Below are positions 11,313 through 51,576 of a stretch of DNA of 64,000 bases, in pieces (position 1 is the first letter of the stretch; the number at the start of each line of letters is the position of its first letter). The position numbers were made by a program, and so were the translations under genes. This stretch comes from Trypanosoma brucei (lineage: Eukaryota). Where the stretch lies: NCBI GenBank assembly GCA_000002445.1, contig CP000071.1:1536001-1600000 (forward strand), written 5' to 3'. A model generated the notes under the pieces. The model saw only the letters and a list, made by a program, of their open reading frames with translations, did no database searches and had not been told where the DNA came from.

Positions 11313-12083
11313 ATGCCTGTCTGTGTTCTAGTGCCTCTCCACCAGGCCGATACTCCTGCCGTCACGGAGGAAATGCTTGGGAGCGCTGTGCGTGTCGCCT
11401 TCAATGAATTGCGTATGATTGGCCTGGGATGTATAACATGTTGTTCTGTGTCTTCCGCAAGGCTTCAGCAGGAGGTGCGGCGTCGTTACCCACTGGCTTA
11501 CGACCGTCATATCATGTGTGGGCAATGGGCCGGGAAGTGGCACCATTTTGTGGAGGGAGTGGCAGGGCTACGTTGCTTTTTGTATAGCACAACGGATTAC
11601 GCTGAGGCTGCTCATTTGGCGACACATATTGCCGTATCTGAGTTGCGTTGCTGTTTGCAGGAGGACATCTTTAGCCTCGTGAGGCTTTCAGATGAGGGAG
11701 TGGGTGCTCGACTTCTTTCCGATGTACTCGAACACACAACTCTGAACCACAACTGCTGGCAACTGGCTCTGGAAGCTGTCATCACTTCCCAATTGAATGG
11801 AAGACCCCGCTGGTTGTCCAAAGCAGTAGAGGCACCACACGTCGTGGAGCTCCTCCGACAAATTAATGAACCTCCCTTCCCGGGGCGGAGGCCGGGGAGT
11901 GAGCGACTGAGGCGCTGTGCTGCACACGAGTTGGTGAAACTTCTTTCCGCAAGGTACGAACTCGTACGCCATGTGAGCGGCTCGCAGCTCCGCCGACACG
12001 TAAGTCAATGCCTTTGTACGTGGGGCGCTATTCCTGCTACATTCAATAAGTGGGACGAGGAACGTATTGCGGTTAATGGCTAA
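11313..12083 (+). CDS. Hypothetical protein (256 aa).
   Basis: An ATG-initiated ORF in the same orientation as the rest of the unit, with a pyrimidine tract upstream (about 11030–11110). I recognise no domain. Confidence 0.45.
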   Translation: MPVCVLVPLHQADTPAVTEEMLGSAVRVAFNELRMIGLGCITCCSVSSARLQQEVRRRYPLAYDRHIMCGQWAGKWHHFVEGVAGLRCFLYSTTDYAEAAHLATHIAVSELRCCLQEDIFSLVRLSDEGVGARLLSDVLEHTTLNHNCWQLALEAVITSQLNGRPRWLSKAVEAPHVVELLRQINEPPFPGRRPGSERLRRCAAHELVKLLSARYELVRHVSGSQLRRHVSQCLCTWGAIPATFNKWDEERIAVNG

Positions 12084-12362
12084 TAATAATAATAATTAAA
12101 AGAGGAATAATGTAGCGGTCGTAGTGTCCTGATTACCATGTGACATTAGAGTTGGTACCATAAGATATTTTTTTTCCTTACTTGACGTTGCTGTTTTGTA
12201 GAAGATCGTTGCAAGGGGTATTGTGGTTCTTAAGTTCCTACTCGAGCTTGTGCCTTGAGCTTGGCTTGTTTTCATTGCCTGTTCATAGCTCGTCCATTCA
12301 TGCATGTTCTACATATAAATATGTATCGGTACGCATATTTAAACTGATGATGCCGCCTTTCA

Positions 12363-12377
12363 CCCCCCCCCCCCCCC
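12363..12377. repeat. C15 homopolymer in a 1.6 kb intergenic spacer.
   Basis: 'tttcaCCCCCCCCCCCCCCCata'. G-homopolymers also occur at 35121–35130 (G10) and 43816–43826 (G11). Confidence 0.9.
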
Positions 12378-13690
12378 ATATATCAGCAACGACTTCTCGC
12401 TTGCTCTTGGTTTACTTTTTTAAAGCAGTTCATTCCCTTTCCAACTTCTTTTTTTTAGTTAATATTGTCATTGCTTCTGCCCACGCCCCCACGGGGGCTG
12501 AGCCTTACTGTGTTTCATTTATTTACTTTTTTACAGCCCGTTGCTGACGGGTGCCACAATTTTTGTATATATATATATATTTTTTTTTGAAATTACTCCT
12601 CTTCACTTGTTATATCATCACATCACTTATTGAGCACCAAGCCTTCTGGTGGTAGTGCTTTGTTTCTTTTTGCCTTTAATAAAAAGAAGGGTTTGATTTA
12701 AAAAAAAACAACAACAAAAGAATTAGTTTGATTTAACACGCGTTTTTATTGTTCTCGGGTATTTGTTTATTGTTTATTTTAAACAGGCTCTAGAAACACC
12801 TTGCTGATTAATTTGTTCGTATCACCCGTCTGTCCTTTACAGCCGCGGCTGTTAGCACAACAGGGATGCGTGAACACATACCCAAAACTGCAATTTTTTT
12901 AATAAAATATATTCATTCGTATCGACCTCAATCACCACCATCGATGCAACCGTAGCAACACTTTATTTTGTGCTGTTTTAAACGTGTGTTAGATGTGTGT
13001 GTGTGTGTTTATTATTATTCACTTGGCTTGTTTCCTCACTTTGTTTTAATACCGGAGAGAAAATAGATCACTTTACTTCCTCCGCGGTCTCTCAGGATCA
13101 CTTTACCCCTTTTTATTATCTTCTTTATTTACTTTTTTTTTTTTTTAAAAAAATATATTTTGTATTTAATATATGCGGGATGTCGTAGATTCGTGAATGG
13201 ACATTGAGTACAGCTGCTGATAAGAGCATTTGTTGTTGGTGCTGCTGAATTTCGGCAACCTCATTTCAGTACAACCCTCATAACTATCACTATTTTTGCT
13301 ACCCGTAGGTGTTTTGTCACATGTTTACCCACCACACACTCTACAGTTTTCTTCTGTTTTCTTTCTTTTTCTTTTATCTGTTCTACACCTCTTCAACTGA
13401 AACTTCGCGTACACATCTTCACACGCATGTTTCCACCCAGCGGGTGCCTCCCGGCGAAAGAAAAAAAAGGAAGGAAAAAAGAAAAGCTGCATCAAAAACA
13501 ACTCTCGAGAGTTATCGTTGTTTTCGCTATCGTTCGTCACAAAAAAGTAAATAAACGAAACGGCCTTTCCGGAAGGTTTTCACCTCAGTAGCGAGTGAAA
13601 GGAGGAGAGGAGGATACAATTAAAGAGAGATTAAAAAAAAAAACAGGGAAGGGAGACGAATTGAAGGAAAAGGCTCAAACGAGGGGAGCA

Positions 13691-16600
13691 ATGATGCGCC
13701 GAGTGGCTTCGACTGGAAGCAATGGGGGACATTGTTACGTTGGTTCGTCCTTGTGGGCAGACAGTGTGTATATGGAGGTTTCCTCCATAACTTTACAGAA
13801 GCGTTTCTCCTTCAAGTATGCAACAAAGCTTCAGCACGACGAAATGCGGCAGCCGTATTACATCCATGAAAAACGCTACGGCATCTTTAGTAACGAAAGA
13901 AACATAGCCAAAGCGAGGCGCGGTCTTCCCTTCATCACTCCCCTCTACACGAAGCATATGAATCTTTGGGATACCGACACAGACGCTAGCAACAATCGTT
14001 TCTTCAGAGGCTATTATTATGGCCAGCGGGAGCTGCACCAGTTACTTGGGCGACCCCACAGTCTCGAAGCAACGAACGCTGATGGCAGCAACGACTTGTC
14101 CACGTACGAGGCCAACACAAGCCAATTATACAAGGGCATACCGCGACCTGCTATAACGAATCTACACTATGAGCCCGCGTGGCGCTATACATTATACCAA
14201 GCAGGTGCGCACGGAGCGCAGCTCTCCAACCCACGTAGTCCCTTCACCGCCAAAGTGCTTGGTGACGAATTGATGCAAGTGCGCGACATCAAGAGCGTAG
14301 AGCATTGCAAAGCTTGGTTTGATCGTTTGCAGTACCTCATCAACTTACACTATGAGGCGGTAGGTGACATTGGAGAGTTCAAGTCTCGTCACACCCGACA
14401 CGTGCACGAGTTCTTCGTTGCCTTTCACGATGCACTGAGCAGCCTTGACTTTCGTGATACGTACCTATTCGACCAGTTCAAGGCGGTCCGCCCTCCGGAG
14501 TTATCGGATCTATTTGGCATCTTCCTTGAGATGGAAGCCAACTACGTTCATGAAGACTATTGCCCCCGGTGCAGTCTACCGTACAGCACTACCCGTTACT
14601 GTGGTGAAGGGGATGTGGATACGCCGTTCAGAAAGCACCGTGGGCGATGGGCCCCTCATCAAAAATGGGGACGTGAGTGGTATGACGTTGTGGCACGTCG
14701 TGCAGAGGCCTTATGGTACCGTGCAACGGAGGACCCATACTTTGGGACACCGCAGCATACCCAGCGACAGGCGGAGGCACTGCTGAAGGTGTATGTACAG
14801 GCGAAGCAACGGGGAAAGGCAATTGATTTTATGAATAAGCTACGGGGAAGTGTAGAGTACCTGACAGGGGACATAACCATCACAACAGTCATGCAAGAGT
14901 CCTATGACGCGCTGCTCGACACAACACCTCATCCACACCTTTTAACAAACGGCTTCACACTGGAGAGTGATGCGGCGAAGTACACTGGAGAAGTGAACAA
15001 GGCGCCGCTTTCTCCGTTGCAATTTCGTATCGACATGGAAATGAACAAGTACCGCAGACAGCAAAAAGAAGAAGGTGTTGTTCGTGTTCCACCCGCCTTG
15101 TGGCGTCTGGATACATCTGCAATTGTACCATACAAGGTTGATTCCAAGACAAGACGCATCGTTAACTGGCGTGAGGTAAAGGAGGGCATCGAAAAATCAT
15201 TCCTCTCCGTGGGGCTGCCGAAGGAGGCGTATACTGGCAACGAGTGGCGCGAGATGTTGTACTTGCATGATGTTATTGCTAACCGAGAGGCCAAGGCGGC
15301 GGTGTTGGAGCAGCAGCAGAAGCTTGACCGCGAGAAATTGAAAGCCCGAGAAAGAGCTTCATTGAAGGGTGAGAAAAGCAGCAACAGTGCCAGCAATGGC
15401 ATTGGCATTATATTCCCCGATAAAGATGGCTATCAGGTTTTCTTCGTAGACGAGGCATCCCTTCGACCTTTTGGTATTGGGGCCTCCGGAACACTGTTCA
15501 AAGCCGTTGCCCGCGTGTACCCCTCGCCCGCGGCGGTGCCGTACGACGATCCAGTCCATGGAAAGCAGTTTCTGATTGACACAACAGATGAAACATGCCA
15601 CCTTTTTGGCGGCTTTGAACATGGTGATCGATTACTACTACGTGCTAAGAGTAGTGGAGGTGATGTTGATGGTGGTAACAATAGCAATTGTAGGAATACC
15701 GGTAGCTTTACCGACGAGGAAGAGGAGGTAATAGTGATGGGTGTTAGCACAGAAGGCAGCGATGCGGAACGAATGTTGTGCGCCATGCACGTGGATACTG
15801 GGAAGCAGCGGGAGCGTGGGATTGTTTTCCTTGGAACCGACTGCATTGACATACGCGAGCGATGGGAGTCGGTTCGCTATGCCGCATCTGCGTATGTGAA
15901 GGGGCGTGTGACGTTGTTGGAATCGCAGCGAACAGCGCGAGAAGAATTTATGGGACAGGTGGTTGGTATTCGCGACGGTGTGTTGTTTGTGCAGTGGCGG
16001 CTTCTGAAAGGTGGCGGGAGCGTTCTTGATCGCAGTGTTGCGGTACCTATTGGGGACTCAACTCAAGTGCGTGAACTGTTTGTTGAGACAAAGGTGCTTG
16101 GTGTTGAACCGTTGCAGTCGCCACCCTCGTGGCGAACACCATTTCGGAATGACTTTGCGGAAGAGCGTCTTAAGGAGTTGCAGCGGGCGCCCTTCAAGAG
16201 GGAAAAATATGTCTCTCTAATTCAGGGTAAGTACACACCGAAGGTTAAGAAGTTTGGCTACACTCAGCACACAACTGTGGATGACTTCGAAACGAAGGAG
16301 TATAAAGACCGACTGCTCTCGAAGCAGTTCTTCCAAAACCCACAGGCTTTTGAGGTAGTCCCTGACCGGAACGAGCGCAGTGTGCAGTTTGGTGGTAAAT
16401 GGGAATATCAACGAACGCATGGCCTTCCAACTGTCGATCGAAACGAACTGGAAAACGGGTGGAGCGAGGTAGAACCAATTAGCGACGGCGAGATGAAAGT
16501 GATTGAGCAAGCGCTACGCGACATCAGTGGTCCCCGTCCTGGAAACTTTGTTAAACCGCCTAGCAAAACAAAATCACTTCAGTTGAGCGAAAGTTGGTGG

Positions 16601-19057
16601 GAACCACTTGGGTACGGTTGGGAACAACACAATGAGGAACAGAAAGCGTTGTGCGATGTAACTGAGCAGCGGCTTATTGACGGTTCAAATCTACCATTCG
16701 GGGGGAAATTGCCACCGTTTGGGACTTCATACGGTATGGGTGAACGTATGCGCGCAATCATTGAGGATTACTCGAAGGGATTCGGACTAGGGCCGCACGG
16801 ACACTCGCCGACTCACGACACAATACATTACAACACATTAAATGCTGAAGGTGAGCGTGTGCGTGATTTGGGTTACACTGATGCACTTGGACGTCTTTTC
16901 AGCGAGAAACTTGGGGACAGGGACGTGCACCAGTGGGCTGTGGAATCATGTGCCGATGGCGAAGCGGATGTGAGGCAGCTCCTACTCTCGTTGCACGAAT
17001 GGCGCGAGCGTGGTAGGCCGCCGTCGCTGTTACTGGCTAATGTACTGTCAAAGTATCTTGAGGAAGAGATTGCTGCGTTTAACAAGGGCATTCCTGAAAA
17101 TGCACCCAAGCTTCAACTTGAGACATCGGATGGTACGTTAGCCCACAGCGGAAGCGGTGGGTCGCGAAGTGGAACGATGTGGGCGGATGTTGATCCAACA
17201 ACTTTTGCTTTGCATCAGGCCAGTCAAAGCATCCGCAGCACTAGATGTGATGAACCCTTTATCCTTCACCTTGTGAAGCGTGCGAAGTTGGGCGAATGCG
17301 TCACGAACTTCACAGATACTGCGTACATCGCCCACCTCGAAAGTTCTGTTATCAATGAATTCCACTTGGCCCTGACGAAGCTAGTTGGGAAGGGCATATC
17401 CCCGACCTTGCTTGCGCAGAAAACTGGGCAGTTACACCGTGGTTCGGTGCGAGTGGGTGGAAATGTAGTCCCGTTTGTGAAAAGCCGGGAGTTGTCAAGA
17501 CTCCTGGAGCGTATGGGGCTCACATCGGAGAGCATTGCTGTTATCACGCGCGGGCTTGCCAATTGCCCGGAGCAAGAGTCTGTTGGCGATGACTTCGCAG
17601 TGCCCGTATCGCTGATCCTTTCATGGGACGGTCCCGGGAGCAGCGGTGGCAGTGGCAGTGGTGACCGCCGTCTCAACACCACCGCCGTCCGCAACGAACA
17701 GCAACGTAAGGGTTCTGCGGCTCTTTCTAGTGCCATACGGCAGCTCAGCCAACATCAGAAGCAGCGTGGTAGTGCTTCAGGCAGAGGCTGGCAAAACGAG
17801 GACAAAATGGTTGTTCACGTTCTGGAGGAACTGTCGTTACGAAATGATGGCCTAGTGATGGACATCCAATATGCAATTCGTGAAAACAAGAAAAATCGTC
17901 GCCTACGGTGGGAGTTCGTTACCACACTTCTTCCTGTTTTTGGTGGTAACGAAGCTAAAGTGGAGCAGCTGTACAGTGATTACTGCGACGGGAAGTATGT
18001 GCCCAACATTACGGTAGCTGTAGAAGCTTTCATTGCCTTTCTGCACAACGCTACGCAGCACCCGGAGACGTATTCAGCTTCAGACTACTTCGACATTGAT
18101 GACGGTAAGAGTTCAACTGCTAGCGGCACCGGTGACCAACCCTCTGCTGGACAGTACACCACCCTGAAGCTACTCGATCCGTTGGAGGGTCCATTCGTTT
18201 TTGACAACGTAAAGGTGGAATATATCCAGACTGTGGAGCGATTTAGGCGCCATGGGATTCGGGCTGGCCCAGTTATGGCACCCGCAACCGGATTTATTGC
18301 GGCCAACTGCAAGTCGTTGAACTACTTTACTCGGCGGCAGGAGGAGGTGGTATACGTCACAAATGATTCCGATCAGGGATTGCGGCGGTCGCTAGAAAAC
18401 AGTGCGTATCACAAGACGATAGCGGCCAACCCCGCGTTGCAGTATTTGCTCAAAGCTCGGCGCGGAGCAGCCTTGGTTGAGACGTTTAACCGATTCTTCT
18501 ACCGGACAATGCCTATGCTTAACTTTTACCAGAACGTGCTTAAACACTACTCAGAAACAATTCAACCGCTCCGACAGGCAGCGAAGAGCAGTACACGCGG
18601 TTTGGCGCGGGCACTGGAAAGTGAGCGGTCCGCTGCAATGGAGGAGTTTCGTCGGAACAGCGAGCGATACTGGAGGAATATTATTGAGGGTCGTAGTGTG
18701 GAGCAGGTCGTGCTGGCAAACGGTGAGTCAAATAGGCGGACCGTCGGTGGTGGTGCCGGTGAGCAACTGCAGAAACCGCAGGGCAACCATGATGCCGTAA
18801 GAACGAACTTTACTGGCGAAGCGACAGATGGAAGCAGGAAGGGGCAGAGACAACATCAGCAACCACCGTTGTCGCAACAACAGCAGCATTCCCGTGGCGA
18901 GGGGGAGCGAAGTGCCGTTCATACTTCTCCCCGACAAGGTGGGTCCCGGGGTATGGCGGATTTGCTGTCCAGACTGAATACACCCAAAACGGGATCAGGT
19001 GTAAAGGGGAGCACTGCAAAAAATACCGGTAACAATAGACGTGGACCAAAATCCTGA
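13691..19057 (+). CDS. Very large hypothetical protein of about 1788 aa. The track ORF starts at a GTG at 13595; the first ATG is at 13691 ('MMRRVASTG...').
   Basis: A continuous 5.4 kb ORF. Positions 13595–13690 are purine-rich and read like a 5' UTR, not coding sequence. There are no recognisable catalytic motifs. Acidic and Ser/Gly-rich low-complexity stretches lie toward the C-terminus. Confidence 0.6.
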   Translation: MMRRVASTGSNGGHCYVGSSLWADSVYMEVSSITLQKRFSFKYATKLQHDEMRQPYYIHEKRYGIFSNERNIAKARRGLPFITPLYTKHMNLWDTDTDASNNRFFRGYYYGQRELHQLLGRPHSLEATNADGSNDLSTYEANTSQLYKGIPRPAITNLHYEPAWRYTLYQAGAHGAQLSNPRSPFTAKVLGDELMQVRDIKSVEHCKAWFDRLQYLINLHYEAVGDIGEFKSRHTRHVHEFFVAFHDALSSLDFRDTYLFDQFKAVRPPELSDLFGIFLEMEANYVHEDYCPRCSLPYSTTRYCGEGDVDTPFRKHRGRWAPHQKWGREWYDVVARRAEALWYRATEDPYFGTPQHTQRQAEALLKVYVQAKQRGKAIDFMNKLRGSVEYLTGDITITTVMQESYDALLDTTPHPHLLTNGFTLESDAAKYTGEVNKAPLSPLQFRIDMEMNKYRRQQKEEGVVRVPPALWRLDTSAIVPYKVDSKTRRIVNWREVKEGIEKSFLSVGLPKEAYTGNEWREMLYLHDVIANREAKAAVLEQQQKLDREKLKARERASLKGEKSSNSASNGIGIIFPDKDGYQVFFVDEASLRPFGIGASGTLFKAVARVYPSPAAVPYDDPVHGKQFLIDTTDETCHLFGGFEHGDRLLLRAKSSGGDVDGGNNSNCRNTGSFTDEEEEVIVMGVSTEGSDAERMLCAMHVDTGKQRERGIVFLGTDCIDIRERWESVRYAASAYVKGRVTLLESQRTAREEFMGQVVGIRDGVLFVQWRLLKGGGSVLDRSVAVPIGDSTQVRELFVETKVLGVEPLQSPPSWRTPFRNDFAEERLKELQRAPFKREKYVSLIQGKYTPKVKKFGYTQHTTVDDFETKEYKDRLLSKQFFQNPQAFEVVPDRNERSVQFGGKWEYQRTHGLPTVDRNELENGWSEVEPISDGEMKVIEQALRDISGPRPGNFVKPPSKTKSLQLSESWWEPLGYGWEQHNEEQKALCDVTEQRLIDGSNLPFGGKLPPFGTSYGMGERMRAIIEDYSKGFGLGPHGHSPTHDTIHYNTLNAEGERVRDLGYTDALGRLFSEKLGDRDVHQWAVESCADGEADVRQLLLSLHEWRERGRPPSLLLANVLSKYLEEEIAAFNKGIPENAPKLQLETSDGTLAHSGSGGSRSGTMWADVDPTTFALHQASQSIRSTRCDEPFILHLVKRAKLGECVTNFTDTAYIAHLESSVINEFHLALTKLVGKGISPTLLAQKTGQLHRGSVRVGGNVVPFVKSRELSRLLERMGLTSESIAVITRGLANCPEQESVGDDFAVPVSLILSWDGPGSSGGSGSGDRRLNTTAVRNEQQRKGSAALSSAIRQLSQHQKQRGSASGRGWQNEDKMVVHVLEELSLRNDGLVMDIQYAIRENKKNRRLRWEFVTTLLPVFGGNEAKVEQLYSDYCDGKYVPNITVAVEAFIAFLHNATQHPETYSASDYFDIDDGKSSTASGTGDQPSAGQYTTLKLLDPLEGPFVFDNVKVEYIQTVERFRRHGIRAGPVMAPATGFIAANCKSLNYFTRRQEEVVYVTNDSDQGLRRSLENSAYHKTIAANPALQYLLKARRGAALVETFNRFFYRTMPMLNFYQNVLKHYSETIQPLRQAAKSSTRGLARALESERSAAMEEFRRNSERYWRNIIEGRSVEQVVLANGESNRRTVGGGAGEQLQKPQGNHDAVRTNFTGEATDGSRKGQRQHQQPPLSQQQQHSRGEGERSAVHTSPRQGGSRGMADLLSRLNTPKTGSGVKGSTAKNTGNNRRGPKS

Positions 19058-23610: not shown

Positions 23611-26600
23611 ATGCTCAGAACTCGCTTGTCACTTGTCAGATTCAGTTTCCCACAGAGCACATTACGCCGGTGCTTCACACGGGGAAGCGAGGCGAGGAGG
23701 CCCACTTGCAACGGTGCACTGCCGAATACATGCCACTGGTCATTGTTGCGACACAATAGCAATGGTAGCGATGCAAGTAAAGGTTCGGCGGCGATGGAGG
23801 AGATAGCACCAGAGATGGTGACAATAGAAATTCTACCAGTGGAGGGGGATTATCCCCTCCAAACTGACGGAGACTGTGACCGCAGCGGTGGGAGTTCGCA
23901 CAATAGTCGCGGCAGCGATGGCATGACTGGCGGTGTGGACGTTGCATCCAAACGCATGCAGCAACAGCAATATTGGGATGTAACGAGCATCGATCACTTT
24001 TCTAAGAGCCGGGTGCTAAACTACGTCCGCCGGACCGGTAATCAATCCGCTAATGTTTTTGACATCAGTGAGGAGCAGATGTTTGGGAAAACGGTCTACC
24101 GCGCGCGGTGCAAACTGCCGCTGCCTGCTCCGCATCATTTATACCTAGCTGAAGGCGTAGGTGAGGATGAGCGAGATGCGGTATTACTTGCTGCAATGCA
24201 CGCGGAACGTGTGTGTGATGCGTTGGGTGTTCCGCTTTTCCGTCTACCACTCATGCAGAAAAAGCATGCGGATAATGCACGGCGGCAGGGGCGTTATGCA
24301 CCCATACCTGGGGATCCCATCAAACCGGAGAATACAATTACACCACCACCTCTGCGGATGGTCTCGGTCCCTAACTGTCAGGCGAAGTCAGAAGTAAAAC
24401 AGGTCTTTTCTTCGTCGATTGCCGAAGCGGAAATTATCAGTGATGACGGCCCACCTGGTGTCCGTTCTTCTTATGCAGCTGGAAGGAAACTAGAGTCTGT
24501 AAGAACAGCAGCACCTGCATCTGGCAGTACTCTCCCAACTGCTGTTGCCGATAATAAGAAAAAAGAAGAGGAGATTGAGGAAGATATGGATGGAGGGAGC
24601 AGCGAAACTTTATACCACACGACAGTGCACTACCCATGGCTCACCCCCAGTGGACGAGAGGGTATTGGAGATGGAGTAACGGGGACGGTAGCGGGATCGA
24701 TGAGTATTCCCCCGGCATCTGCCGCCTTTGACCCGACAGAGGGTGGGCTGTGGCAGATGGTTAACACAACTTCTACTCGGTGCTCCCCTTCCCCAGATGC
24801 GCTGTTGTTGCCGTGTGTATACGAGGCGGCAGCACACGGGCGAATGAAGGATCACTTTCTTCAACAAGGAATGTCCCTCAAGGATCGCGTAACTTTCACC
24901 CATGTGGCCGTCGCCAATCACTCGACACGGATGTACGTAGCGGAACTCTTCCTCCATGACACTGTAGTGGCGCGTGGCAAGGCACAGACAAAGGAGTGTG
25001 CGGAGCATCTTGCGGCTATGCATGGGGAATTGCTTCTGGATGCTCTCGCTCGACCTCTTTTCCCTCAGGACCCTGAGCGTCAAGCGCGGCACGCTGAAGC
25101 CGTCGCACGGTTTGGTCGTTGGGCCCCAAACCCCAAGACGGGTGACTTGCAACACCCGCGTCTGCACGACGTATTGCCCTTACCCCTGAAGCAACAAGTG
25201 GGTGGTGATGATGTGTGGATGGACCCAATGGTCTTGCGGCGCTGCGGTTACCAACGCAGCATGAGTGAGCGAATGATATCTTCACACATTGAAATCAATA
25301 ACTACTGTGGGGATTACATTGAGGCAAACCCCGACCCCGCTCTGTTAGAGGAGGCACGGCGGGCGCTGGAAGTGTGGCAACGTGATGTTGCCCGCAATCC
25401 GCATCCCGATTTGTTTGTAATCACCCGTATGGGTGATCAATTCCGTGCGAGTACTCTACTTCCTGTCCCCAAGGAATTTGGCATTCGTGGGGGAAATGGA
25501 GTGGGAAAAACGATGGAGCAAGCGATGGATTTATGCGCCCTACATGCTGTGGATACACTCTGCGCACTTGGTGTTCCCCTCTTTACAAACCGCAAGAAAC
25601 AGGAGGCATTTGTTGAAGCAAGACGGAAAAGGGGGCTCGTAACCGCGGACGTCATGGGAGGTTTGAAGAAAAAAAACGGACTGGTCGCCATTATTGCCCC
25701 GTCACTACGATCAGAGGGTGATACAGCATCAGCGAACGCTTCGGTGGGGTGCGCTGTCGGCGCGGGTGGCAGCGATCGGGTGAAGAAGGAGAGACCCCCT
25801 TATTTGCCTGGTTACATGGTTGAGGGCAACCAGCCACGACCGCTGCCGCACATCTGCGATACGCTTCGTATATTACAGCTGCGCATCCCGGAAGACTTCA
25901 CGGTGTATGGGGAAGGGCTTACCGATGAGTCCATTATAGAGGTAGGCAATGAGGCGAAGGTATGCGTTCAGAATTACCTGAGACAGCATTTACCAAAGAA
26001 TGCCAATGTGAATGCGTCTGTTTACATAACGGGCTATGGCAGGCAGGTTAGCGTTCACAATATTGCCTACCTTCCACTTGTTTTGCCGCGACGGAGAGAA
26101 GGTGCAGTAGGAAGGGGCAAAGTTGTTGGTGAGGACACAAGCACCAAAAATTCCACGCCATCAGTAGCAAAAACAGCGGATGGTGAGTTAAAAGAAAGAA
26201 ATGAATCAAAGGGTGCGGAAGGCGCCGCTACAACGTCGCTTTGTGTGGCAGGCAAGACAGGAAGTGAAGAAGTTGAGTCGTCTCAGGTCCACAGCGGGGG
26301 GACGCAAGATGGGGTGGAGAACCCTAAAGAGCGTGGGGAACCAACAGAGCGTCTTCTGGCGATTGGAATTTCGCTTAAGAAGAAGGACGCGGAGAGAGTG
26401 TGTTATCTTCATGCTGTTGACATTCTCCGAAGGAATGGTGTGGATGTGCTCTCAACCTACCGTGCGGGGCTTCCACGCCGCAAGGGATTGCAATCACCAA
26501 CACAATCTCCCTCAACAGCGGGAGAGGAAACGAGGGGCGGTGGTGGTGGTGCGGTGGCAGACGTAGCGACTTCAACCAAGCCCATGGTGAAGTGCAACGA

Positions 26601-26757
26601 AGAGTGTAAGAAGCCTCAAACTGGCGGAGAGTCGGGGCAGCCACCAGCACTTCCCAAGCCGTACATGCATAAACTCATGAAAAACTTCATGGAAAGCGGA
26701 AAGCATTATACACCACCAAAGCGACGATCATCTCCCAGTCCTCACTCACCCTTTTGA
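23611..26757 (+). CDS. Probable mitochondrial protein (1048 aa) carrying four dsRBD-like repeats.
   Basis: The ATG was checked. The N-terminus 'MLRTRLSLVRFSFPQSTLRRCFTRG' is Arg/Ser-rich and amphipathic, like a mitochondrial presequence. Four repeats end in the dsRBD C-terminal-helix signature G.G.(S/T)K..A...A...A...L...GVPLF. They are '...GVGEDERDAVLLAAMHAERVCDALGVPLF', '...RGKAQTKECAEHLAAMHGELLLDALARPLF', '...GVGKTMEQAMDLCALHAVDTLCALGVPLF' and '...SLKKKDAERVCYLHAVDILRRNGVDV'. Each is preceded by beta-strand-like segments; for example 'SRVLNYVRRTGNQSANVFDISEEQMFGKTVYRARCKL' resembles dsRBD helix-1 through beta1–3. Confidence 0.6.
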   Translation: MLRTRLSLVRFSFPQSTLRRCFTRGSEARRPTCNGALPNTCHWSLLRHNSNGSDASKGSAAMEEIAPEMVTIEILPVEGDYPLQTDGDCDRSGGSSHNSRGSDGMTGGVDVASKRMQQQQYWDVTSIDHFSKSRVLNYVRRTGNQSANVFDISEEQMFGKTVYRARCKLPLPAPHHLYLAEGVGEDERDAVLLAAMHAERVCDALGVPLFRLPLMQKKHADNARRQGRYAPIPGDPIKPENTITPPPLRMVSVPNCQAKSEVKQVFSSSIAEAEIISDDGPPGVRSSYAAGRKLESVRTAAPASGSTLPTAVADNKKKEEEIEEDMDGGSSETLYHTTVHYPWLTPSGREGIGDGVTGTVAGSMSIPPASAAFDPTEGGLWQMVNTTSTRCSPSPDALLLPCVYEAAAHGRMKDHFLQQGMSLKDRVTFTHVAVANHSTRMYVAELFLHDTVVARGKAQTKECAEHLAAMHGELLLDALARPLFPQDPERQARHAEAVARFGRWAPNPKTGDLQHPRLHDVLPLPLKQQVGGDDVWMDPMVLRRCGYQRSMSERMISSHIEINNYCGDYIEANPDPALLEEARRALEVWQRDVARNPHPDLFVITRMGDQFRASTLLPVPKEFGIRGGNGVGKTMEQAMDLCALHAVDTLCALGVPLFTNRKKQEAFVEARRKRGLVTADVMGGLKKKNGLVAIIAPSLRSEGDTASANASVGCAVGAGGSDRVKKERPPYLPGYMVEGNQPRPLPHICDTLRILQLRIPEDFTVYGEGLTDESIIEVGNEAKVCVQNYLRQHLPKNANVNASVYITGYGRQVSVHNIAYLPLVLPRRREGAVGRGKVVGEDTSTKNSTPSVAKTADGELKERNESKGAEGAATTSLCVAGKTGSEEVESSQVHSGGTQDGVENPKERGEPTERLLAIGISLKKKDAERVCYLHAVDILRRNGVDVLSTYRAGLPRRKGLQSPTQSPSTAGEETRGGGGGAVADVATSTKPMVKCNEECKKPQTGGESGQPPALPKPYMHKLMKNFMESGKHYTPPKRRSSPSPHSPF

Positions 26758-27399: not shown

Positions 27400-28248
27400 A
27401 TGTCCTTGTCATCCACCACAATCAACTGTCTTGGTTGCACAACCACACAAGGTTCAACCGCCTCCGGTACGCAGTATGTTAGCCACAGACACCGACTGCA
27501 GCGGACCTCCTGCTGGATGGAGCTCGCATGTTTTAACGGTTTCCCAGAAACCCCATCCCTCTCCGGGTCTTTAGTTCAGCAACGTCATAATTTGCTGGAC
27601 TCTGTCAAATCCGCGGGGCCTCCGGGGCCTGTCTTTCGCGTGGAATTTGAACTTTTTGATGATGAATCGCCCAAGACTTGTGCGAACTTCAGGAATTTGT
27701 GCGCAGGGCGCACAACCAGCCGGAAGGGTGAGACATACTGGTTCCAGGGTGTCGTGCCTTCCTACCGCGGGACATACTTTCACAAGATTATTCCACAATT
27801 CTGCGCTCAAGGCGGGGACCTCACCATGCGGGTAGACAATGGCGCGAATCATTTGAGTAGCTTCGGTCGCGGTTGGTTCGCGGATGAGTATAAGCGACGG
27901 CGGATGAACGAAGTCGGGCTCTTGGCGATGGCCAACAACGGACCCAACAGCAACGGCTCGCAATTTTTCATAACCACGTCTGACTCAAATGAGAAGGCGC
28001 TCAACGGTCGTCACGTTTGCTTTGGCCGAGTGGTGCAGGGCCTGAAGGAGTTCATGCATGAGGTTGCTCCCTTTGGCGACAGTGCTGGCTATCCATCACG
28101 TTTTATTGTCGTTACGGACTGCGGGGAAGGGCCACTACCAGCTACGCTCGGCTCCACATTGCCGGATAAAACACCTGCAGCTGATATTAGCGAAGAAGGA
28201 GCTCGGGAATGCGGGAGGGTGTCGGTGAAGTCCCCTTCCGGCGGGTAG
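27400..28248 (+). CDS. Cyclophilin-type peptidyl-prolyl cis-trans isomerase (282 aa) with an N-terminal extension of about 75 aa.
   Basis: The ATG was checked. Cyclophilin signatures are present: 'FHKIIPQFCAQGGD' (human CypA 'FHRIIPGFMCQGGD') and 'MANNGPNSNGSQFFITT' (CypA 'MANAGPNTNGSQFFICT'). Confidence 0.85.
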   Translation: MSLSSTTINCLGCTTTQGSTASGTQYVSHRHRLQRTSCWMELACFNGFPETPSLSGSLVQQRHNLLDSVKSAGPPGPVFRVEFELFDDESPKTCANFRNLCAGRTTSRKGETYWFQGVVPSYRGTYFHKIIPQFCAQGGDLTMRVDNGANHLSSFGRGWFADEYKRRRMNEVGLLAMANNGPNSNGSQFFITTSDSNEKALNGRHVCFGRVVQGLKEFMHEVAPFGDSAGYPSRFIVVTDCGEGPLPATLGSTLPDKTPAADISEEGARECGRVSVKSPSGG

Positions 28249-28713: not shown

Positions 28714-31700
28714 ATGGATCCGCACCCAACGCCACTGAATCCCGATGCCACATGGGATGACAATGGCTTACTATTTACGCTCCTGATGGGTGCTTTTGCA
28801 TTTATAGGACTCGGTGCCGTTAGTGCTTTCACAGTGTATGCACCATCGATGTGGTTGCGCCGTGTCTTTCGGTTAAATCATACTGCTGTTGTTCTTGTTG
28901 AGGAAGAGCCCCTTGGTGGTGATGTGGAGACACTCCAGGCTCCCGATGACAAGGAACCGCGATATCGGAGAGTTGGATGTGCTCTTCCTTATCCATGCTC
29001 ACTGTTCGTTTTACCCAGTTGGAAGTGCTGGCTGAGTGTAGAGGAAGAGGTGGAGGGTCTGGAAAATGTTTTTAAACCTTTAGTCGATTCAGAAAGTGGT
29101 AACCCCGCGGGTATCGGCGACAACGCAGACGACAGGGGAAGCGCAGTGGGTGATGATGATGAGACGGCTCCACTTACTCGGGACCACATTTCCAGTGAGT
29201 ACCCGGCCACAGTTGAGGTTGACATAGAGGGTGTTTCCTCTGGAAGTCCAGTAGGCAACGTGCCGTCCCGGACGAATGGCGCACCAAAAACACCATTGGA
29301 CCCGCATGTTGCAGTCTACCTGTACTTCCTGAAGTTGTTCTCGACCGTGTTTATCCTAGGTTCTTGCATCAATTTGTGGATCTGTGTCCTGGCGGGAACA
29401 GACGATTATCGGGAGAAGAGTATGGTAAGCATGGATGAGAAGCATTGTGGTGCGCAAGGGAGTAACAGAACTGGGTGCATGGAACTCATGCCGTACTGCC
29501 ACTACACGGATGCAGACACCTGCGTTCCTGTGCCCCTTCACGGTATTTATGATCTGACAGTGAGGAACATTACACCGAACAGCTGGCGTTTGTGGTTTGT
29601 AGCTCTCCTTGATATGGCGTTTTGTTTGTTTTTTATTGCGGCCATCGTCTATTACCTCCGGAAGGTGGATAAATATGTTGAAACAGTGATGCGACACCAG
29701 ATGGAGTGCGCAGTTGGCCATCGAGTAGCGATTGTTGGCGGGTTAAAAGGGAGGGTATTAACGGAGGCGGCGTTTCGGCGACGTTATCTTCAGGAGGACT
29801 CGTACTTTGGCCCAAACAGGCGTGGCGTGAATACCTTTCGCTATCCAGTCGCTGTCGCAAATGCGCTCATGGGTGGAACACTGAGCGTTGATGACGGTGA
29901 TACGTATCATCAGTATGATTGTGGCGGATTGAGTTGTATCTTTTCGTCTTGTTTTTTCACTCGGTACAAAACAACACGGTCAAACGCCGTTTTCCTGCAA
30001 GATGGGAGCGTTCGGCGCATGCTATTCCCACGTGACCCACCACCCGGTATGTACACCTATATGGACAAAACTGAGGAAGCGATGGAGGGCCTGCAGGAGG
30101 CCGTCGCCGATTACAAGGTTTTTCACAAGTTAGCGAATCACGTGAGTTACAAGAAGCGGCAGGAGTTGCACAAAAAACTGCTTCTCGTGCGTGCTTCTTT
30201 CCCGTTCTGTTTCAGCATGATATCCAAAGTTGACTACTGGAAAAAGGCCTTCATTGAGCGGGCAACAAAGCTGAATCGTTTTGTAGATGAGGTACCTGCT
30301 AGGAAACCTAAGGGGATTGCTTATGTTGTGTTTGACAATTCACTCGCAGCCTACGAGTTTGTAAACCTTTTTTACGCCCAGCACAGAGGAGCTTCAGGCA
30401 CATGGGCGGCCATTGCAGGCCCCTCTAATGGCATAATCGAAATGAACATCACAACGAACCGACAAGTGGGCTGGGTGCGGCGTATTGTGGTCGCTGTGAT
30501 ATATATTTTAATGTTGCTGTTTTGGTCTGTCCCTGTCGGTTTTCTGAGTTCCATTGACAATATTTCCAAAATCCCCGGAATGGGATGGCTCTCTCGAGAT
30601 TCTTCCAAGTTGCCTGAAAATGTCCGAAGTGCTATCGCAGCTCTTCTACCGGTTGGTGTGCTCGCGTTGTTTAACATAGCACTCCCTTATATTGTCCGCA
30701 TTCTTGCCATTGCCATGGGGGTAATAAACATGTACGAGCGTGAGGAGTGTGCATTACACCTACAGTACCTTTTCATGGTCCTTACTGGTGTCATATTTCA
30801 GGCTCCGCTTCAAAACGGCATGGAAGAGTTGAACCGCTTGATTACAGAAATATCGCGCGATAGCATTGCAAAGCTTTTCGTAACTTTTGTAACTCCGGAG
30901 GGAGGTTATTGGTACACGAAGGTTGTTATGGGCTTGTGTGTATCCACATGGGTTGCATTTCTCAACCCTGGGACGCTGACTCTGGTTGTGCTGCAGCACA
31001 AGCTGGCGAATGTGCAGCGTGTGTACAACGAACTCTTTGGTCCTTGTCTGTTCGAGTGGCCGCACCTGTACAGCTTCGATCTTTCCCTATTAGCCATGGG
31101 GCTTCTCTTCCACATGACTGTTCCGTTGCTTTCGTTTTTTGTTGGCATCTACTTCGTTGTGCGCTACTTTACGCAGCGTGGCATGCTGTACGACCGTTAC
31201 CGCCCTGAAAATCATCCGCGTCAGGACTGTACCCCATTCGGTGCGGCAGGAATGGTTATTCGTGCAGCTTGTTGGTTGTATTGCTTAGGCGCAGTTGGCG
31301 GGGTGTTGTTCATGAACGAATTGGATCATTTGGGTGGACTACTCATTTGTTCTGTTTCGTTTACCCTGAGTGTGATCCTGTTGGCCTACACACACATCAC
31401 AACTCGTCGATGGATCGCTACCTTACCTAATGCACGGAGACTCCTCAGGAACAGAGTACCTCGCTCAGTCCAAACGCAGTATGGCACCTCCCGCAGCGCC
31501 GACAATGTGGTGGCCCCTAAGTTACCTAACCCCAAACCACCAGCACGTGCAGAAGAAGAACGCAGGGAGGCTGATAGCGCCGTCACTTTCCAGGGAGCAA
31601 CATTGCCTGTTGTGCCAAGAAAACAGTATTCCATGGAAACGTTGGACTTGGGCTTCGACGGCGTCGCGGGTCCGACACATTGCGCGCCAACGACGTCACT

Positions 31701-32028
31701 CCTCTGGCAAAGCCGAGGGATGCAAAGCTCCCCGGTAGGTTCAGTTTGTAACCTCCAAGACCCTGACGGTACCGAAATGGAAGGTGTGGTTGAGTGGGAT
31801 GCCGCACCTGATGCGGAAGACGATATGCTTTATCACAGAATGTCCCTATTGCCACACAATCCTAATGTGGATTCCCGCTACAATCCCAGACACCAGCAGC
31901 TTCAGCGCATAAACATCACACGTGAGATTGAGCGGTTAGAGGAAACCATATTCCATGTGGAACGTTACTGGGACGCTCCGTACTCAGAAGTCAACCCGGA
32001 AGAATGTGGCATCATAGAACAGCGGTAG
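28714..32028 (+). CDS. Multi-pass membrane protein of the DUF221 / CSC1 / OSCA / TMEM63 family (calcium-permeable, stress- or mechano-gated cation channel fold), 1104 aa.
   Basis: The ATG was checked. 'GIAYVVFDNSLAAYEFVNLF...TWAAIAGPSNGIIEMNITTNRQVGWVRRIVVAVIYILMLLFWSVPVGFLSSI' aligns to the OSCA1/CSC1 'AFVSFK..W.AAVCAQ...W....AP.P.DV.W.NL.....R....V.....FF...P..FV.SL' cytosolic RRM-like domain and the following TM. 'LAMGLLFHMTVPLLSFFVGIYFVVRYFTQRGMLYDRY' aligns to OSCA 'FLLGLVYAPVTPMLLPFILVFFALAYIVYRHQIINVYNQEY'. Multiple predicted TM helices are present. Confidence 0.7.
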   Translation: MDPHPTPLNPDATWDDNGLLFTLLMGAFAFIGLGAVSAFTVYAPSMWLRRVFRLNHTAVVLVEEEPLGGDVETLQAPDDKEPRYRRVGCALPYPCSLFVLPSWKCWLSVEEEVEGLENVFKPLVDSESGNPAGIGDNADDRGSAVGDDDETAPLTRDHISSEYPATVEVDIEGVSSGSPVGNVPSRTNGAPKTPLDPHVAVYLYFLKLFSTVFILGSCINLWICVLAGTDDYREKSMVSMDEKHCGAQGSNRTGCMELMPYCHYTDADTCVPVPLHGIYDLTVRNITPNSWRLWFVALLDMAFCLFFIAAIVYYLRKVDKYVETVMRHQMECAVGHRVAIVGGLKGRVLTEAAFRRRYLQEDSYFGPNRRGVNTFRYPVAVANALMGGTLSVDDGDTYHQYDCGGLSCIFSSCFFTRYKTTRSNAVFLQDGSVRRMLFPRDPPPGMYTYMDKTEEAMEGLQEAVADYKVFHKLANHVSYKKRQELHKKLLLVRASFPFCFSMISKVDYWKKAFIERATKLNRFVDEVPARKPKGIAYVVFDNSLAAYEFVNLFYAQHRGASGTWAAIAGPSNGIIEMNITTNRQVGWVRRIVVAVIYILMLLFWSVPVGFLSSIDNISKIPGMGWLSRDSSKLPENVRSAIAALLPVGVLALFNIALPYIVRILAIAMGVINMYEREECALHLQYLFMVLTGVIFQAPLQNGMEELNRLITEISRDSIAKLFVTFVTPEGGYWYTKVVMGLCVSTWVAFLNPGTLTLVVLQHKLANVQRVYNELFGPCLFEWPHLYSFDLSLLAMGLLFHMTVPLLSFFVGIYFVVRYFTQRGMLYDRYRPENHPRQDCTPFGAAGMVIRAACWLYCLGAVGGVLFMNELDHLGGLLICSVSFTLSVILLAYTHITTRRWIATLPNARRLLRNRVPRSVQTQYGTSRSADNVVAPKLPNPKPPARAEEERREADSAVTFQGATLPVVPRKQYSMETLDLGFDGVAGPTHCAPTTSLLWQSRGMQSSPVGSVCNLQDPDGTEMEGVVEWDAAPDAEDDMLYHRMSLLPHNPNVDSRYNPRHQQLQRINITREIERLEETIFHVERYWDAPYSEVNPEECGIIEQR

Positions 32029-51575: not shown

Positions 51576-51576
51576 C

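What the first reader, a model, noticed from the sequence alone, without database searches (positions are those of the whole stretch)
23611..26757. Large mitochondrial-presequence protein with four degenerate dsRBD repeats
The N-terminus 'MLRTRLSLVRFSFPQSTLRR' looks like a matrix-targeting presequence. Four segments carry the diagnostic dsRBD C-terminal helix G.G.(S/T)K..A...A..HA...L..LGVPLF, each preceded by beta-strand-like segments. Each repeat ends in 'PLF' or 'PLFR', which suggests a lineage-specific variant of the fold. A multi-dsRBD protein in the kinetoplastid mitochondrion is a candidate for binding gRNA/mRNA duplexes in U-insertion/deletion editing, or for rRNA contacts in the protein-rich mitoribosome.
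Basis: partly seen in the sequence, partly recalled or inferred. Interest (0 to 1): 0.65.

Follow-up and report, generated by a model that had tools for sequence, protein, structure and literature searches.

The report
Mitochondrial four-dsRBD relative of KREH2
This gene (Trypanosoma brucei Tb927.8.5220) encodes an uncharacterised protein that is imported into mitochondria, is built from four divergent double-stranded-RNA-binding domains, and turns out to be a helicase-less relative of the front half of the RNA-editing helicase KREH2, which makes it a testable candidate RNA-handling factor.

Summary

New here: the repeats belong to the kinetoplastid-restricted extended dsRBD type DSRM_REH2 (PF26536). 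An exhaustive HMM search finds it in only 152 of 1.84 billion representative proteins. These fall mainly into KREH2 helicases (about six copies) and this four-copy, helicase-less family. Repeats 1-3 match KREH2 modules 1-3 in order, and repeat 4 matches module 5.

The canonical KKxAK RNA-contact motif is degenerate in every repeat. The protein is absent from solved mitoribosome, RESC and RECC structures and from older mitoribosome, editing and MRB1 lists.

Best reading: a mitochondrial duplex-RNA-binding or adaptor protein acting in RNA editing or processing. Architecture and localisation are well supported; the function is inferred. No held open-access paper names the gene in its main text.

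The parts
23611..26757 (+). Complete ORF, 1048 aa plus stop; T. brucei Tb927.8.5220 / Q57UJ4
23611..23688 (+). N-terminal Arg-rich segment (aa 1-26), a predicted matrix-targeting presequence. The whole of aa 1-118 is predicted disordered and is poorly conserved.
   Evidence: Sequence read directly; TargetP and MitoFates positive and ATOM40-dependent import in PMC5436138 supplements; pLDDT below 50 for aa 1-118; 11-24% identity to orthologues
23968..24366 (+). Module D1 (aa 120-252): a dsRBD core plus an extension (PLF, helix 3 'QKKHADNARR', 'GRYAP', 'PPPLRM'). Its best partner in KREH2 is module R1.
   Evidence: 42% identity over aa 182-261 to the R5 module of Strigomonas REH2
24799..25194 (+). 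Module D2 (aa 397-528): a dsRBD core, the only repeat above the Pfam dsrm threshold (aa 423-471), plus an extension ('RQARHAEAVARFGRWAP', 'LPLPLK'). Its best partner in KREH2 is module R2.
25327..25680 (+). Module D3 (aa 573-690): a dsRBD core with 'LPVPKEFGIRGGNGVGKT...ALHAVDTLCALGVPLF' and a basic helix 3. Its best partner in KREH2 is module R3.
25792..25914 (+). Conserved pre-D4 segment (aa 728-768, 'PPYLPGYMVEGNQPRPLPH...LRIPEDF'); specific to this family and absent from KREH2.
   Evidence: 93% identity to T. cruzi, 51% to L. major
25915..26481 (+). Module D4 (aa 769-957): a dsRBD split by an 83-aa disordered acidic insert (aa 830-912) in the beta2-beta3 loop. It retains 'KKKDAER' at the start of helix 2. 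Its best partner in KREH2 is module R5.
26641..26754 (+). Conserved C-terminal motif (aa 1011-1048, 'PKPYMHKLMKNFMESGKHYTPPKRR...SPF'), with a predicted strand and helix at pLDDT about 83-85.

Best explanation
Tb927.8.5220 is a nuclear-encoded protein imported into the mitochondrion. It has four divergent, extended dsRBD modules of the kinetoplastid-specific DSRM_REH2 type, separated by disordered linkers, and no catalytic domain.

It is a helicase-less paralogue of the N-terminal dsRBD array of the RNA-editing helicase KREH2. D1, D2 and D3 correspond in order to KREH2 modules R1, R2 and R3, and D4 corresponds to R5.

Proposed mechanism, which is inferred and not shown: like other multi-dsRBD proteins (Staufen, TRBP/Loqs, DGCR8), it uses several weak, shape-reading dsRBD contacts, helped by the basic helix-3/GR[YW]AP extensions, to bind duplex or highly structured mitochondrial RNA. 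Candidate ligands are gRNA-mRNA duplexes, sense/antisense transcript duplexes and structured pre-mRNAs. It would act as an adaptor that recruits or regulates RNA-processing or editing machinery, possibly on the same ligands as KREH2.

Shown: the ORF, four dsRBD folds, repeat homology, homology to KREH2 modules, restriction of the module to kinetoplastid-type proteins, and (from the literature) mitochondrial import.

Inferred: RNA binding, the nature of the RNA, and any link to editing.
For: **Fold.**
- AlphaFold2 gives four alpha-beta-beta-beta-alpha units with pLDDT 80-95. D4 modelled alone agrees.
- Pfam dsrm scores 29 bits against a cut-off of 23 on aa 423-471.

**Repeat homology.** hhalign E-values run from 4.6e-18 to 3.4e-6.

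**KREH2 link.**
- The precomputed Pfam family PF26536 DSRM_REH2 hits every orthologue.
- BLASTP gives 42-44% identity between D1/D2 and a REH2 module, including the PLF-helix-GRxAP-PLR extension.
- An exhaustive HMM search finds 152 of 1.84e9 proteins. They fall mainly into 2100-2450-aa proteins with 5-7 copies and 1000-1300-aa proteins with 4 copies.
- The long class carries DEAD, Helicase_C, HA2 and OB_NTP_bind domains. It aligns to fragments named REH2.
- Best-partner scores are collinear: D1-R1 262, D2-R2 200, D3-R3 133, D4-R5 87.

**Mitochondrial location.** ATOM40-RNAi ratio 0.178, mitochondrial proteome reference set, TargetP and MitoFates positive (PMC5436138 supplements).

**Constraint.** Modules and extensions are 48-67% identical between T. 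brucei and L. major, against 0-13% in the linkers. Helix 2 of D1 (LAAMHAERVCDALGV.LFRL) is nearly invariant across 18 orthologues.

**Possible RNA contacts.**
- Conserved basic residues sit in helix 1 of D1 (R134, N137, R140, R141).
- His175 is invariant in the beta1-beta2 loop of D1.
- K923, K924 and K925 are conserved in D4.
- The extensions are basic, net +2 to +7.
- A mutation in the KREH2 dsRBD of the same lineage (K1078A/A1086D) reduces association with gRNA and mRNA (bioRxiv 10.1101/524702).
Against: - No direct functional data. No held open-access paper names Tb927.8.5220 in its main text.
- It is not flagged in the RNA-editing or MRB1 lists used by Peikert et al..
- It is absent from the held supplements of the T. 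brucei complex map, LOPIT and TrypTag papers. Those files may be truncated.
- The canonical region-3 motif KKxAK is degenerate in all four repeats: E-R-D-A-V, K-E-C-A-E, M-E-Q-A-M and K-K-D-A-E. The domain cores have net charge of about 0. This is typical of 'type B' dsRBDs that mediate protein-protein contacts.
- Fold hits include such protein-binding dsRBDs: Staufen dsRBD5, PACT D3 and TRBP dsRBD3.
- Pfam dsrm does not recognise D1, D3 or D4. A profile of the D1/D2 modules finds no dsRBD chain in the PDB by sequence.
Confidence: 0.5

Rival explanations
1. Protein-protein scaffold. The four modules are 'type B' dsRBDs that no longer bind RNA. They serve as interaction platforms, for example by dimerising or docking onto a conserved mitochondrial partner through the near-invariant helix 2 / PLF / helix 3 / GR[YW]AP surface.
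For: - KKxAK is degenerate in all repeats and the cores are neutral.
- Helix 2 and the extension are extremely conserved, including positions expected to be solvent-exposed.
- Structural neighbours include protein-binding dsRBDs: Staufen dsRBD5-Miranda, PACT D3 homodimer, the TRBP-Dicer interface and the DRB7.2:DRB4 and DCL4-DRB4 complexes.
Against: - D4 keeps K-K-K-D-A with invariant K923 and near-invariant K925.
- D1 keeps basic helix-1 residues and a loop His.
- The top structural matches are the RNA-bound MLE dsRBDs.
- In the related KREH2, a dsRBD mutation lowers RNA association.
- The two readings are not exclusive.
Confidence: 0.25
2. Mitoribosome component or assembly factor. The dsRBDs contact 9S or 12S rRNA in the protein-rich kinetoplastid mitoribosome or in its assembly intermediates.
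For: - dsRBD-containing proteins such as mL44 exist in mitoribosomes and appear among the fold hits.
- Two genes upstream lies the gene for mitoribosomal protein mS48. Gene neighbourhood carries little weight in trypanosome polycistrons.
Against: - phmmer of the protein against all PDB chains finds nothing beyond noise (best hit Rab33B, E=0.012).
- The same search with the ORF two genes upstream (13595..19057) finds mS48 in 6HIV, 7PUB, 7AOR and 7ANE at E=0. Kinetoplastid mitoribosome entries are therefore searchable.
- It is not flagged in the Zikova 2008 mitoribosome list, whereas Tb927.8.5200 and Tb927.8.5280 are.
Confidence: 0.08
3. kDNA-associated factor that binds RNA-DNA hybrids or structured DNA during minicircle or maxicircle replication or transcription.
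For: dsRBD-like folds can bind A-form RNA-DNA hybrids (general knowledge). The protein is mitochondrial.
Against: - It is not found in the held hit tables of a genome-wide RNAi screen for kDNA loss. The authors themselves report many false negatives.
- Its closest relatives are modules of an RNA helicase, not of DNA-replication proteins.
Confidence: 0.05

Closest known systems
KREH2 / REH2 (Tb927.4.1500), the DEAH/RHA helicase of the REH2C RNA-editing complex: its N-terminal ~1100 aa
   Same: - It has the same extended dsRBD module type (Pfam PF26536 DSRM_REH2), with the (M/L)HA signature, PLF, helix 3 and the GR[YW]AP / PLR extension.
- The correspondence is collinear: D1-R1, D2-R2, D3-R3, and D4 with R5.
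- Both are mitochondrial and restricted to kinetoplastids.
   Different: - This protein has no DEAD, Helicase_C, HA2 or OB domains.
- It has four modules rather than six and lacks equivalents of R4 and of the canonical R6, the 'dsRBD2' of the literature.
- It has its own conserved segments: FDPTE, PYLPGY..EGN, GNEAKVCVQNY and the C-terminal MH..MK.F motif.
- No known association with KH2F1 or RESC.
MLE / DHX9 (RNA helicase A) tandem dsRBD1-dsRBD2
   Different: - In MLE and DHX9 the dsRBDs are attached to a helicase, and there are two rather than four.
- Their basic RNA-contact motifs are better preserved. This point rests on general knowledge and was not tested here.
- A sequence profile of the D1/D2 modules does not find them in the PDB.
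Stand-alone multi-dsRBD cofactors (Staufen, TRBP/PACT/Loquacious/R2D2, DGCR8, plant DRB/HYL1)
   Same: - The architecture is the same: several dsRBDs, no enzyme domain and long disordered linkers.
- They mix RNA-binding and protein-binding dsRBDs.
- They act as adaptors for RNase III enzymes or helicases.
- All appear among the fold hits.
   Different: - Those proteins are cytosolic or nuclear, whereas this one is mitochondrial.
- There is no detectable sequence relationship beyond the generic dsrm hit of D2.
- No partner enzyme is known for this protein.
mL44 and other mitoribosomal dsRBD proteins
   Same: They are mitochondrial proteins with a dsRBD fold and give weak fold hits.
   Different: mL44 combines an RNase III-like domain with one dsRBD. 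This protein matches no chain of any solved mitoribosome.

Membership tests
dsRBD fold / Pfam dsrm (PF00035) | alpha1-beta1-beta2-beta3-alpha2 topology of about 65-90 aa | tested here: met
   All four repeats show it in the AlphaFold2/DSSP model. D4 does so again when modelled alone; it carries an 83-aa insert in the beta2-beta3 loop.
dsRBD fold / Pfam dsrm (PF00035) | Structural similarity to experimentally solved dsRBDs | tested here: met
dsRBD fold / Pfam dsrm (PF00035) | Score above the Pfam gathering threshold | tested here: inconclusive
   Met for D2 only (29 bits against 23, aa 423-471). Seven of the 14 members of A2 (D1, D2 and one REH2 module) match dsrm; the D1 sequence of this window does not. 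D3 gives one weak hit among 13 orthologues (E=0.12) and D4 gives none. D1, D3 and D4 are connected by profile-profile homology.
dsRBD fold / Pfam dsrm (PF00035) | Canonical RNA-contact motifs (KKxAK at the start of helix 2; GPxH in the beta1-beta2 loop) | tested here: not met
   The KKxAK positions read E-R-D-A-V (D1), K-E-C-A-E (D2), M-E-Q-A-M (D3) and K-K-D-A-E (D4). The third Lys is never kept. D1 keeps an invariant P-H in loop 2.
dsRBD fold / Pfam dsrm (PF00035) | Binding to double-stranded RNA | not testable with these tools
   Needs EMSA or CLIP.
DSRM_REH2 (Pfam PF26536), the kinetoplastid extended dsRBD | Match to the family model | tested here: met
   The precomputed PF26536 hit is reported for the identical protein cluster and for all orthologues; the family name is shown. 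The local Pfam copy did not report this model.
DSRM_REH2 (Pfam PF26536), the kinetoplastid extended dsRBD | Homology to the N-terminal modules of KREH2, including the C-terminal extension | tested here: met
   BLASTP gives 42-44% identity. hhalign gives 97-100% probability for D1-D4 against their best KREH2 partners. The extension (PLF, helix 3, GR[YW]AP) is full in D1 and D2, partial in D3 and absent in D4.
KREH2 / REH2C helicase complex | DEAH/RHA helicase core with HA2 and OB fold | tested here: not met
   No helicase domains in the 1048-aa protein, whereas KREH2 orthologues have them. It is a paralogue of the N-terminal array only, not a KREH2 orthologue.
KREH2 / REH2C helicase complex | Physical association with KH2F1, KH2F2 or RESC | not testable with these tools
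   No held proteomic table lists it. It is not flagged as MRB1 or RNA-editing in the PMC5436138 reference table.
Mitochondrial presequence-targeted proteins | N-terminal basic presequence and import dependent on the outer-membrane translocase | tested here: met
   Six Arg and no acidic residue in aa 1-26 (sequence). TargetP and MitoFates are positive. Abundance falls to 0.178 on ATOM40 RNAi (p=0.004). It is listed in the mitochondrial proteome reference set (supplements of PMC5436138). The import evidence is literature data, not recomputed here.
Kinetoplastid mitoribosome or its assembly factors | Presence as a modelled chain in solved structures or in the purified-ribosome inventory | tested here: not met
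   No PDB match. Positive control: the nearby upstream ORF equals mS48 in 6HIV and 7PUB. It is not flagged in the Zikova 2008 column.

The most novel reading that the evidence does not exclude
Tb927.8.5220 is a free-standing counterpart of the KREH2 dsRBD array and recognises the same RNA duplexes as the helicase. It would act as a missing duplex-handling factor of kinetoplastid mitochondria. One possibility is that it holds or hands over gRNA-mRNA anchor duplexes, or the sense/antisense gRNA precursor duplexes left by 3' processing. Another is that it competes with KREH2 and so tunes editing fidelity or stage-specific editing.
Probability: 0.15. Interest if true: 0.7.

Novelty: new member of a known kind. 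Interest (0 to 1): 0.5.

Why it matters
U-insertion/deletion editing depends on the formation and remodelling of short gRNA-mRNA duplexes. How duplexes are recognised, protected and handed between RESC, RECC and REH2C is still open. KREH2 is the only editing helicase with dsRBDs, and the role of its long N-terminal region is poorly understood.

A conserved, mitochondrially imported protein that consists almost entirely of the same module type, in the same order, gives a simple handle on what these modules do. It can be depleted, tagged, cross-linked and expressed without the helicase.

If it binds editing duplexes or competes with KREH2, it would be a new regulator of editing. If it is a pure protein scaffold, it would show that this lineage-specific dsRBD variant has become an interaction module.

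The module is restricted to kinetoplastids, so it has no close host counterpart.

Tried and rejected
- **Self-BLASTP.** Run on the protein to detect the repeats, it found only the identity hit. Profile-profile comparison was needed.
- **D1/D2 profile against PDB sequences.** No dsRBD chain was found; the best hit was noise at E=0.04. The fold assignment therefore rests on structure prediction, the Pfam hit of D2 and transitive profile homology.
- **The search for homologous proteins with the module alignment.** It returned only three short fragments because of the word-index preselection. The exhaustive representative search replaced it.
- **Literature, main text.** No main-text mention of Tb927.8.5220, Tb08.5H5.450, Q57UJ4, XP_847352, PF26536 or 'REH2 DRSM'.
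- **Literature, supplements.**
  - No occurrence in the held supplements of TrypTag, Madina 2015, the T. brucei complex map or LOPIT.
  - No occurrence in the held tables of the 2026 kDNA-loss screen.
  - Stored files may be cut, so these absences are weak evidence.
- **Papers not held.** Aphasizheva 2014 and 2020, Kumar 2016, Suematsu 2016, Alsford 2011 and Pyrih 2023.
- **Tool limits.** The afdb50 fold library was unavailable.
- **Mitoribosome reading.** Rejected as the main explanation after the PDB positive control.
- **Distribution across Kinetoplastea.**
  - I considered that Perkinsela, Papus and Trypanoplasma hits show the four-dsRBD family throughout the group.
  - By summed BLAST bits they look more like KREH2, and they lack the family-specific motifs.
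  - Secure orthologues are limited to Trypanosoma, Leishmania and related trypanosomatid genera. A few longer (1500-1800 aa) proteins of unnamed origin also carry the motifs.
- **Correction of an earlier assumption.** The N-terminal module of the Strigomonas 'REH2' entry P0032 is module R5 of full-length KREH2, not R1, because that gene model is N-terminally truncated.


Full report
**1. The observation**

The window is a piece of Trypanosoma brucei TREU927 chromosome 8. ORF 23611..26757 (+) starts with ATG and encodes 1048 aa. An exact-sequence look-up identifies it as XP_847352.1 / UniProt Q57UJ4, "hypothetical protein, conserved", on a 2.48-Mb contig. UniRef labels it "REH2 DRSM domain-containing protein".

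The supplements of Peikert et al. 2017 (PMC5436138) equate Q57UJ4 with Tb927.8.5220 (old id Tb08.5H5.450), 114.05 kDa. The gene order agrees:
- Upstream is a cullin (Pfam Cullin and Cullin_Nedd8), which is TbCul-C Tb927.8.5210 (PMC12816148).
- Downstream is a cyclophilin, Tb927.8.5230.
- Next is the 11-TM RSN1_7TM protein Tb927.8.5240.

The region upstream of the ATG carries pyrimidine-rich tracts typical of a trans-splice acceptor region.

**2. The repeats are real and homologous**

An alignment of 18 trypanosomatid orthologues shows four strongly conserved blocks separated by unconserved, predicted-disordered linkers. T. brucei against L. major identity is 48-67% in most modules and their extensions. 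Two module segments fall lower: the N-terminal half of D4 (38%) and the D3 extension (12%). It is 0-13% in the linkers.

AlphaFold2 with this alignment gives pLDDT 80-95 in four alpha-beta-beta-beta-alpha units. These are D1 (aa 131-205), D2 (406-478), D3 (576-653) and D4 (772-941, with an 83-aa disordered insert between beta2 and beta3). The N-terminal 118 residues and the linkers score below 50.

Profile-profile comparison of the four blocks:

| Pair | Probability | E-value |
|---|---|---|
| D1-D2 | 99% | 4.6e-18 |
| D1-D3 | 96.6% | 5.9e-10 |
| D2-D3 | 94% | 1.4e-7 |
| D3-D4 | 87.7% | 3.4e-6 |
| D1-D4 | 75% | 2.5e-5 |

This is far beyond chance. 'PLF' ends D1, D2 and D3, but D4 ends 'DVL'.

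**3. The fold is dsRBD**

- Pfam dsrm hits aa 423-471 (D2) at 29 bits, against a cut-off of 23.
- Scanned domain by domain across orthologues:
  - dsrm matches 7 of the 14 members of the A2 set (D1, D2 and one REH2 module), but not the D1 sequence of this window.
  - It gives one weak hit among 13 D3 sequences.
  - It gives no hit for D4.
- Foldseek of the full model against the PDB puts the tandem dsRBDs of Drosophila MLE on top (E about 2e-4, probability 1.0). Loqs-PB, ADAR2, DHX9 and Staufen dsRBD5 follow.

The four-dsRBD reading is therefore confirmed.

**4. Mitochondrial location**

The N-terminus has six Arg and no acidic residue in its first 26 positions.

In the ImportOmics data set the protein drops to 0.178 of control (log2 -2.49, p=0.004) when the outer-membrane import pore ATOM40 is depleted, and it is part of the defined importome. 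The reference table lists it in the mitochondrial proteome set (Panigrahi 2009 / Mach 2013 column) and as positive in TargetP and MitoFates. It is not flagged in the columns for mitochondrial ribosomes, RNA-editing proteins or the MRB1 complex.

**5. What kind of dsRBD: the link to KREH2**

All orthologues carry the precomputed Pfam family PF26536, named DSRM_REH2.

BLASTP against a Strigomonas protein named "RNA editing associated helicase 2" shows 42% identity over aa 182-261 (D1 helix 2 plus what follows) and 44% over aa 451-526 (D2). The similarity extends beyond the dsRBD into a shared extension. The pattern is...(M/L)HAE...D.LG.PLF, then a third helix 'Q..HA..V', then 'GR(Y/W/A)AP', then 'PLR'.

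A profile of this extended module was run with HMMER against 1.84 billion representative proteins. It found only 152 proteins at E<=0.001. Most fall into two classes:
- Proteins of about 2100-2450 aa with 5-7 matched stretches.
- Proteins of about 1000-1300 aa with four matched stretches, which is the present family.

The long proteins have DEAD, Helicase_C, HA2 and OB_NTP_bind domains in their C-terminal halves. They align end to end with the named REH2 fragments from Strigomonas and T. cruzi, so they are KREH2 orthologues.

Their N-terminal ~1100 aa hold six modules, R1 to R6. R6 is the canonical Pfam dsrm and corresponds to the 'dsRBD2' mutated in the literature (K1078A/A1086D). A 2026 review refers to 'dsRBD6' in KREH2 (PMC12936278). 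That fits a six-dsRBD count but was not checked further.

Best hhalign partners of the four repeats among R1-R6:

| Repeat | Best KREH2 module | Score |
|---|---|---|
| D1 | R1 | 262 |
| D2 | R2 | 200 |
| D3 | R3 | 133 |
| D4 | R5 | 87 (98% probability) |

Motif detail agrees (sequences printed, residues):
- D3 and R3 share 'LP.P..FG.RGG.G'.
- D4 and R5 share 'K(K/R)DAE'.

The protein is thus a helicase-less paralogue of the KREH2 N-terminal array. It also has family-specific segments of its own (FDPTE, PYLPGY..EGN, GNEAKVCVQNY and a C-terminal MH..MK.F motif) that KREH2 lacks.

Named strong hits are all kinetoplastid: Trypanosoma, Leishmania, Leptomonas, Novymonas, Porcisia, Strigomonas, Trypanoplasma borreli, Perkinsela and Papus. 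The non-trypanosomatid ones resemble KREH2 more than this family and lack its motifs. I therefore claim secure orthologues only in Trypanosoma, Leishmania and related trypanosomatid genera.

**6. Does it bind RNA?**

This cannot be decided here.

Against binding:
- The KKxAK motif at the start of helix 2 is degenerate in every repeat: E-R-D-A-V, K-E-C-A-E, M-E-Q-A-M and K-K-D-A-E. The third Lys is never kept.
- The domain cores have net charge of about 0.
- Protein-binding dsRBDs are among the structural neighbours.

For binding:
- D4 keeps an invariant K923 and conserved K924/K925.
- D1 keeps conserved R134, N137, R140 and R141 on helix 1 and an invariant Pro-His in the beta1-beta2 loop.
- The extensions are basic, +2 to +7.
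- The closest solved structures are the RNA-bound MLE dsRBDs.
- A dsRBD mutation in KREH2 lowers its association with gRNA and mRNA.

Near-invariance of helix 2 and the extension across about 18 species argues for a conserved ligand surface, whether RNA or protein.

**7. Alternatives**

*Mitoribosome.* phmmer of the protein against all PDB chains finds nothing (best hit Rab33B, E=0.012). The same search with the ORF two genes upstream (13595..19057) returns mS48 of the T. brucei, T. cruzi and Leishmania mitoribosomes at E=0. The negative result is therefore meaningful for modelled chains. That applies to the mitoribosome entries. For RESC and RECC I ran no positive control and assume those entries are in the PDB copy.

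*kDNA maintenance.* The gene is not in the held hit tables of a genome-wide kDNA-loss screen. The authors report that the screen has many false negatives.

*Pure protein scaffold.* This remains a serious rival and is not exclusive of RNA binding.

**8. Comparison with the known, and novelty**

The fold (dsRBD), the variant (PF26536 DSRM_REH2) and the mitochondrial location are all already recorded in databases and proteomic tables. The finding is therefore not a new kind of thing.

What appears not to be described is twofold:
- The protein itself. No held open-access paper names it in its main text.
- Its collinear relationship to KREH2 modules R1-R3 and R5.

I file it as a new, uncharacterised member of the multi-dsRBD adaptor class and a paralogue of the KREH2 N-terminal array. 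It is not a KREH2 orthologue, because the defining helicase core is absent.

**9. Verdict**

| Claim | Status |
|---|---|
| Observation | Confirmed, except 'PLF' in 3 of 4 repeats |
| Architecture and localisation | Supported |
| Editing-related function | Plausible, strengthened by the KREH2 link, unproven |
| Mitoribosome function | Disfavoured |

Confidence is high (about 0.9) for the architecture, the homology and the mitochondrial location. It is about 0.5 for a duplex or structured-RNA-binding adaptor in mitochondrial RNA processing or editing. Interest is moderate: an accessible, lineage-specific candidate factor rather than a surprise.

Noticed in passing
window 13595..19057 (+): This 1820-aa ORF has no Pfam hit. 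It is the kinetoplastid-specific mitoribosomal small-subunit protein mS48 (Tb927.8.5200, Q57UJ2), matching PDB 6HIV and 7PUB at E=0. It lies two genes upstream of the finding, so two mitochondrial RNA-related genes sit close together in this polycistron.
   Followed up: yes
window 51504..51576 (+): A single tRNA-Arg(ACG) gene (ARAGORN; Rfam 66 bits) lies at the end of the plus-strand gene run. Long ORFs switch to the minus strand from about 57.4 kb, so the tRNA sits at a convergent strand-switch, a likely transcription-termination region.
   Followed up: partly
KREH2 orthologues P0046-P0048 (not in the window): The N-terminal ~1100 aa of KREH2 consists of six tandem DSRM_REH2 modules. Older literature counted two dsRBDs. 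In pairwise scores R1, R2, R4 and R5 are the strong modules, R3 is weaker and R6 is the weakest.
   Followed up: partly
locus L001 3001..6618 (protein P0050), and protein P0049: These are helicase-less proteins with five to seven DSRM_REH2 modules (1205 and 1740 aa), from unnamed ENA and Logan assemblies. By BLAST they are closer to Tb927.8.5220 than to KREH2, but they lack its family-specific motifs. They could be orthologues from other kinetoplastid lineages that kept an R4-like module, or a third family.
   Followed up: partly
window 27400..28248 (+): The cyclophilin ORF (Tb927.8.5230) reads 282 aa from its first ATG, as annotated in T. b. gambiense and T. equiperdum. The TREU927 record annotates a 243-aa product. 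This is a start-codon annotation discrepancy.
   Followed up: no
window 28714..32028 (+): This 1104-aa RSN1_7TM (TMEM63/OSCA-like) multi-pass membrane protein is Tb927.8.5240. It was the one novel high-confidence RNAi hit for reduced sensitivity to human serum in Alsford et al. 2014. That paper called it a putative channel without naming the domain family.
   Followed up: partly
window 39347..41200 (+): A 617-aa protein with at least three WW domains (Pfam E=5e-42). Not examined further.
   Followed up: no
window 12001..14000, 44001..46000 and 52001..54000: These stretches have lower GC content (0.40-0.44, against about 0.50 elsewhere). They probably correspond to intergenic or strand-switch regions.
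   Followed up: no
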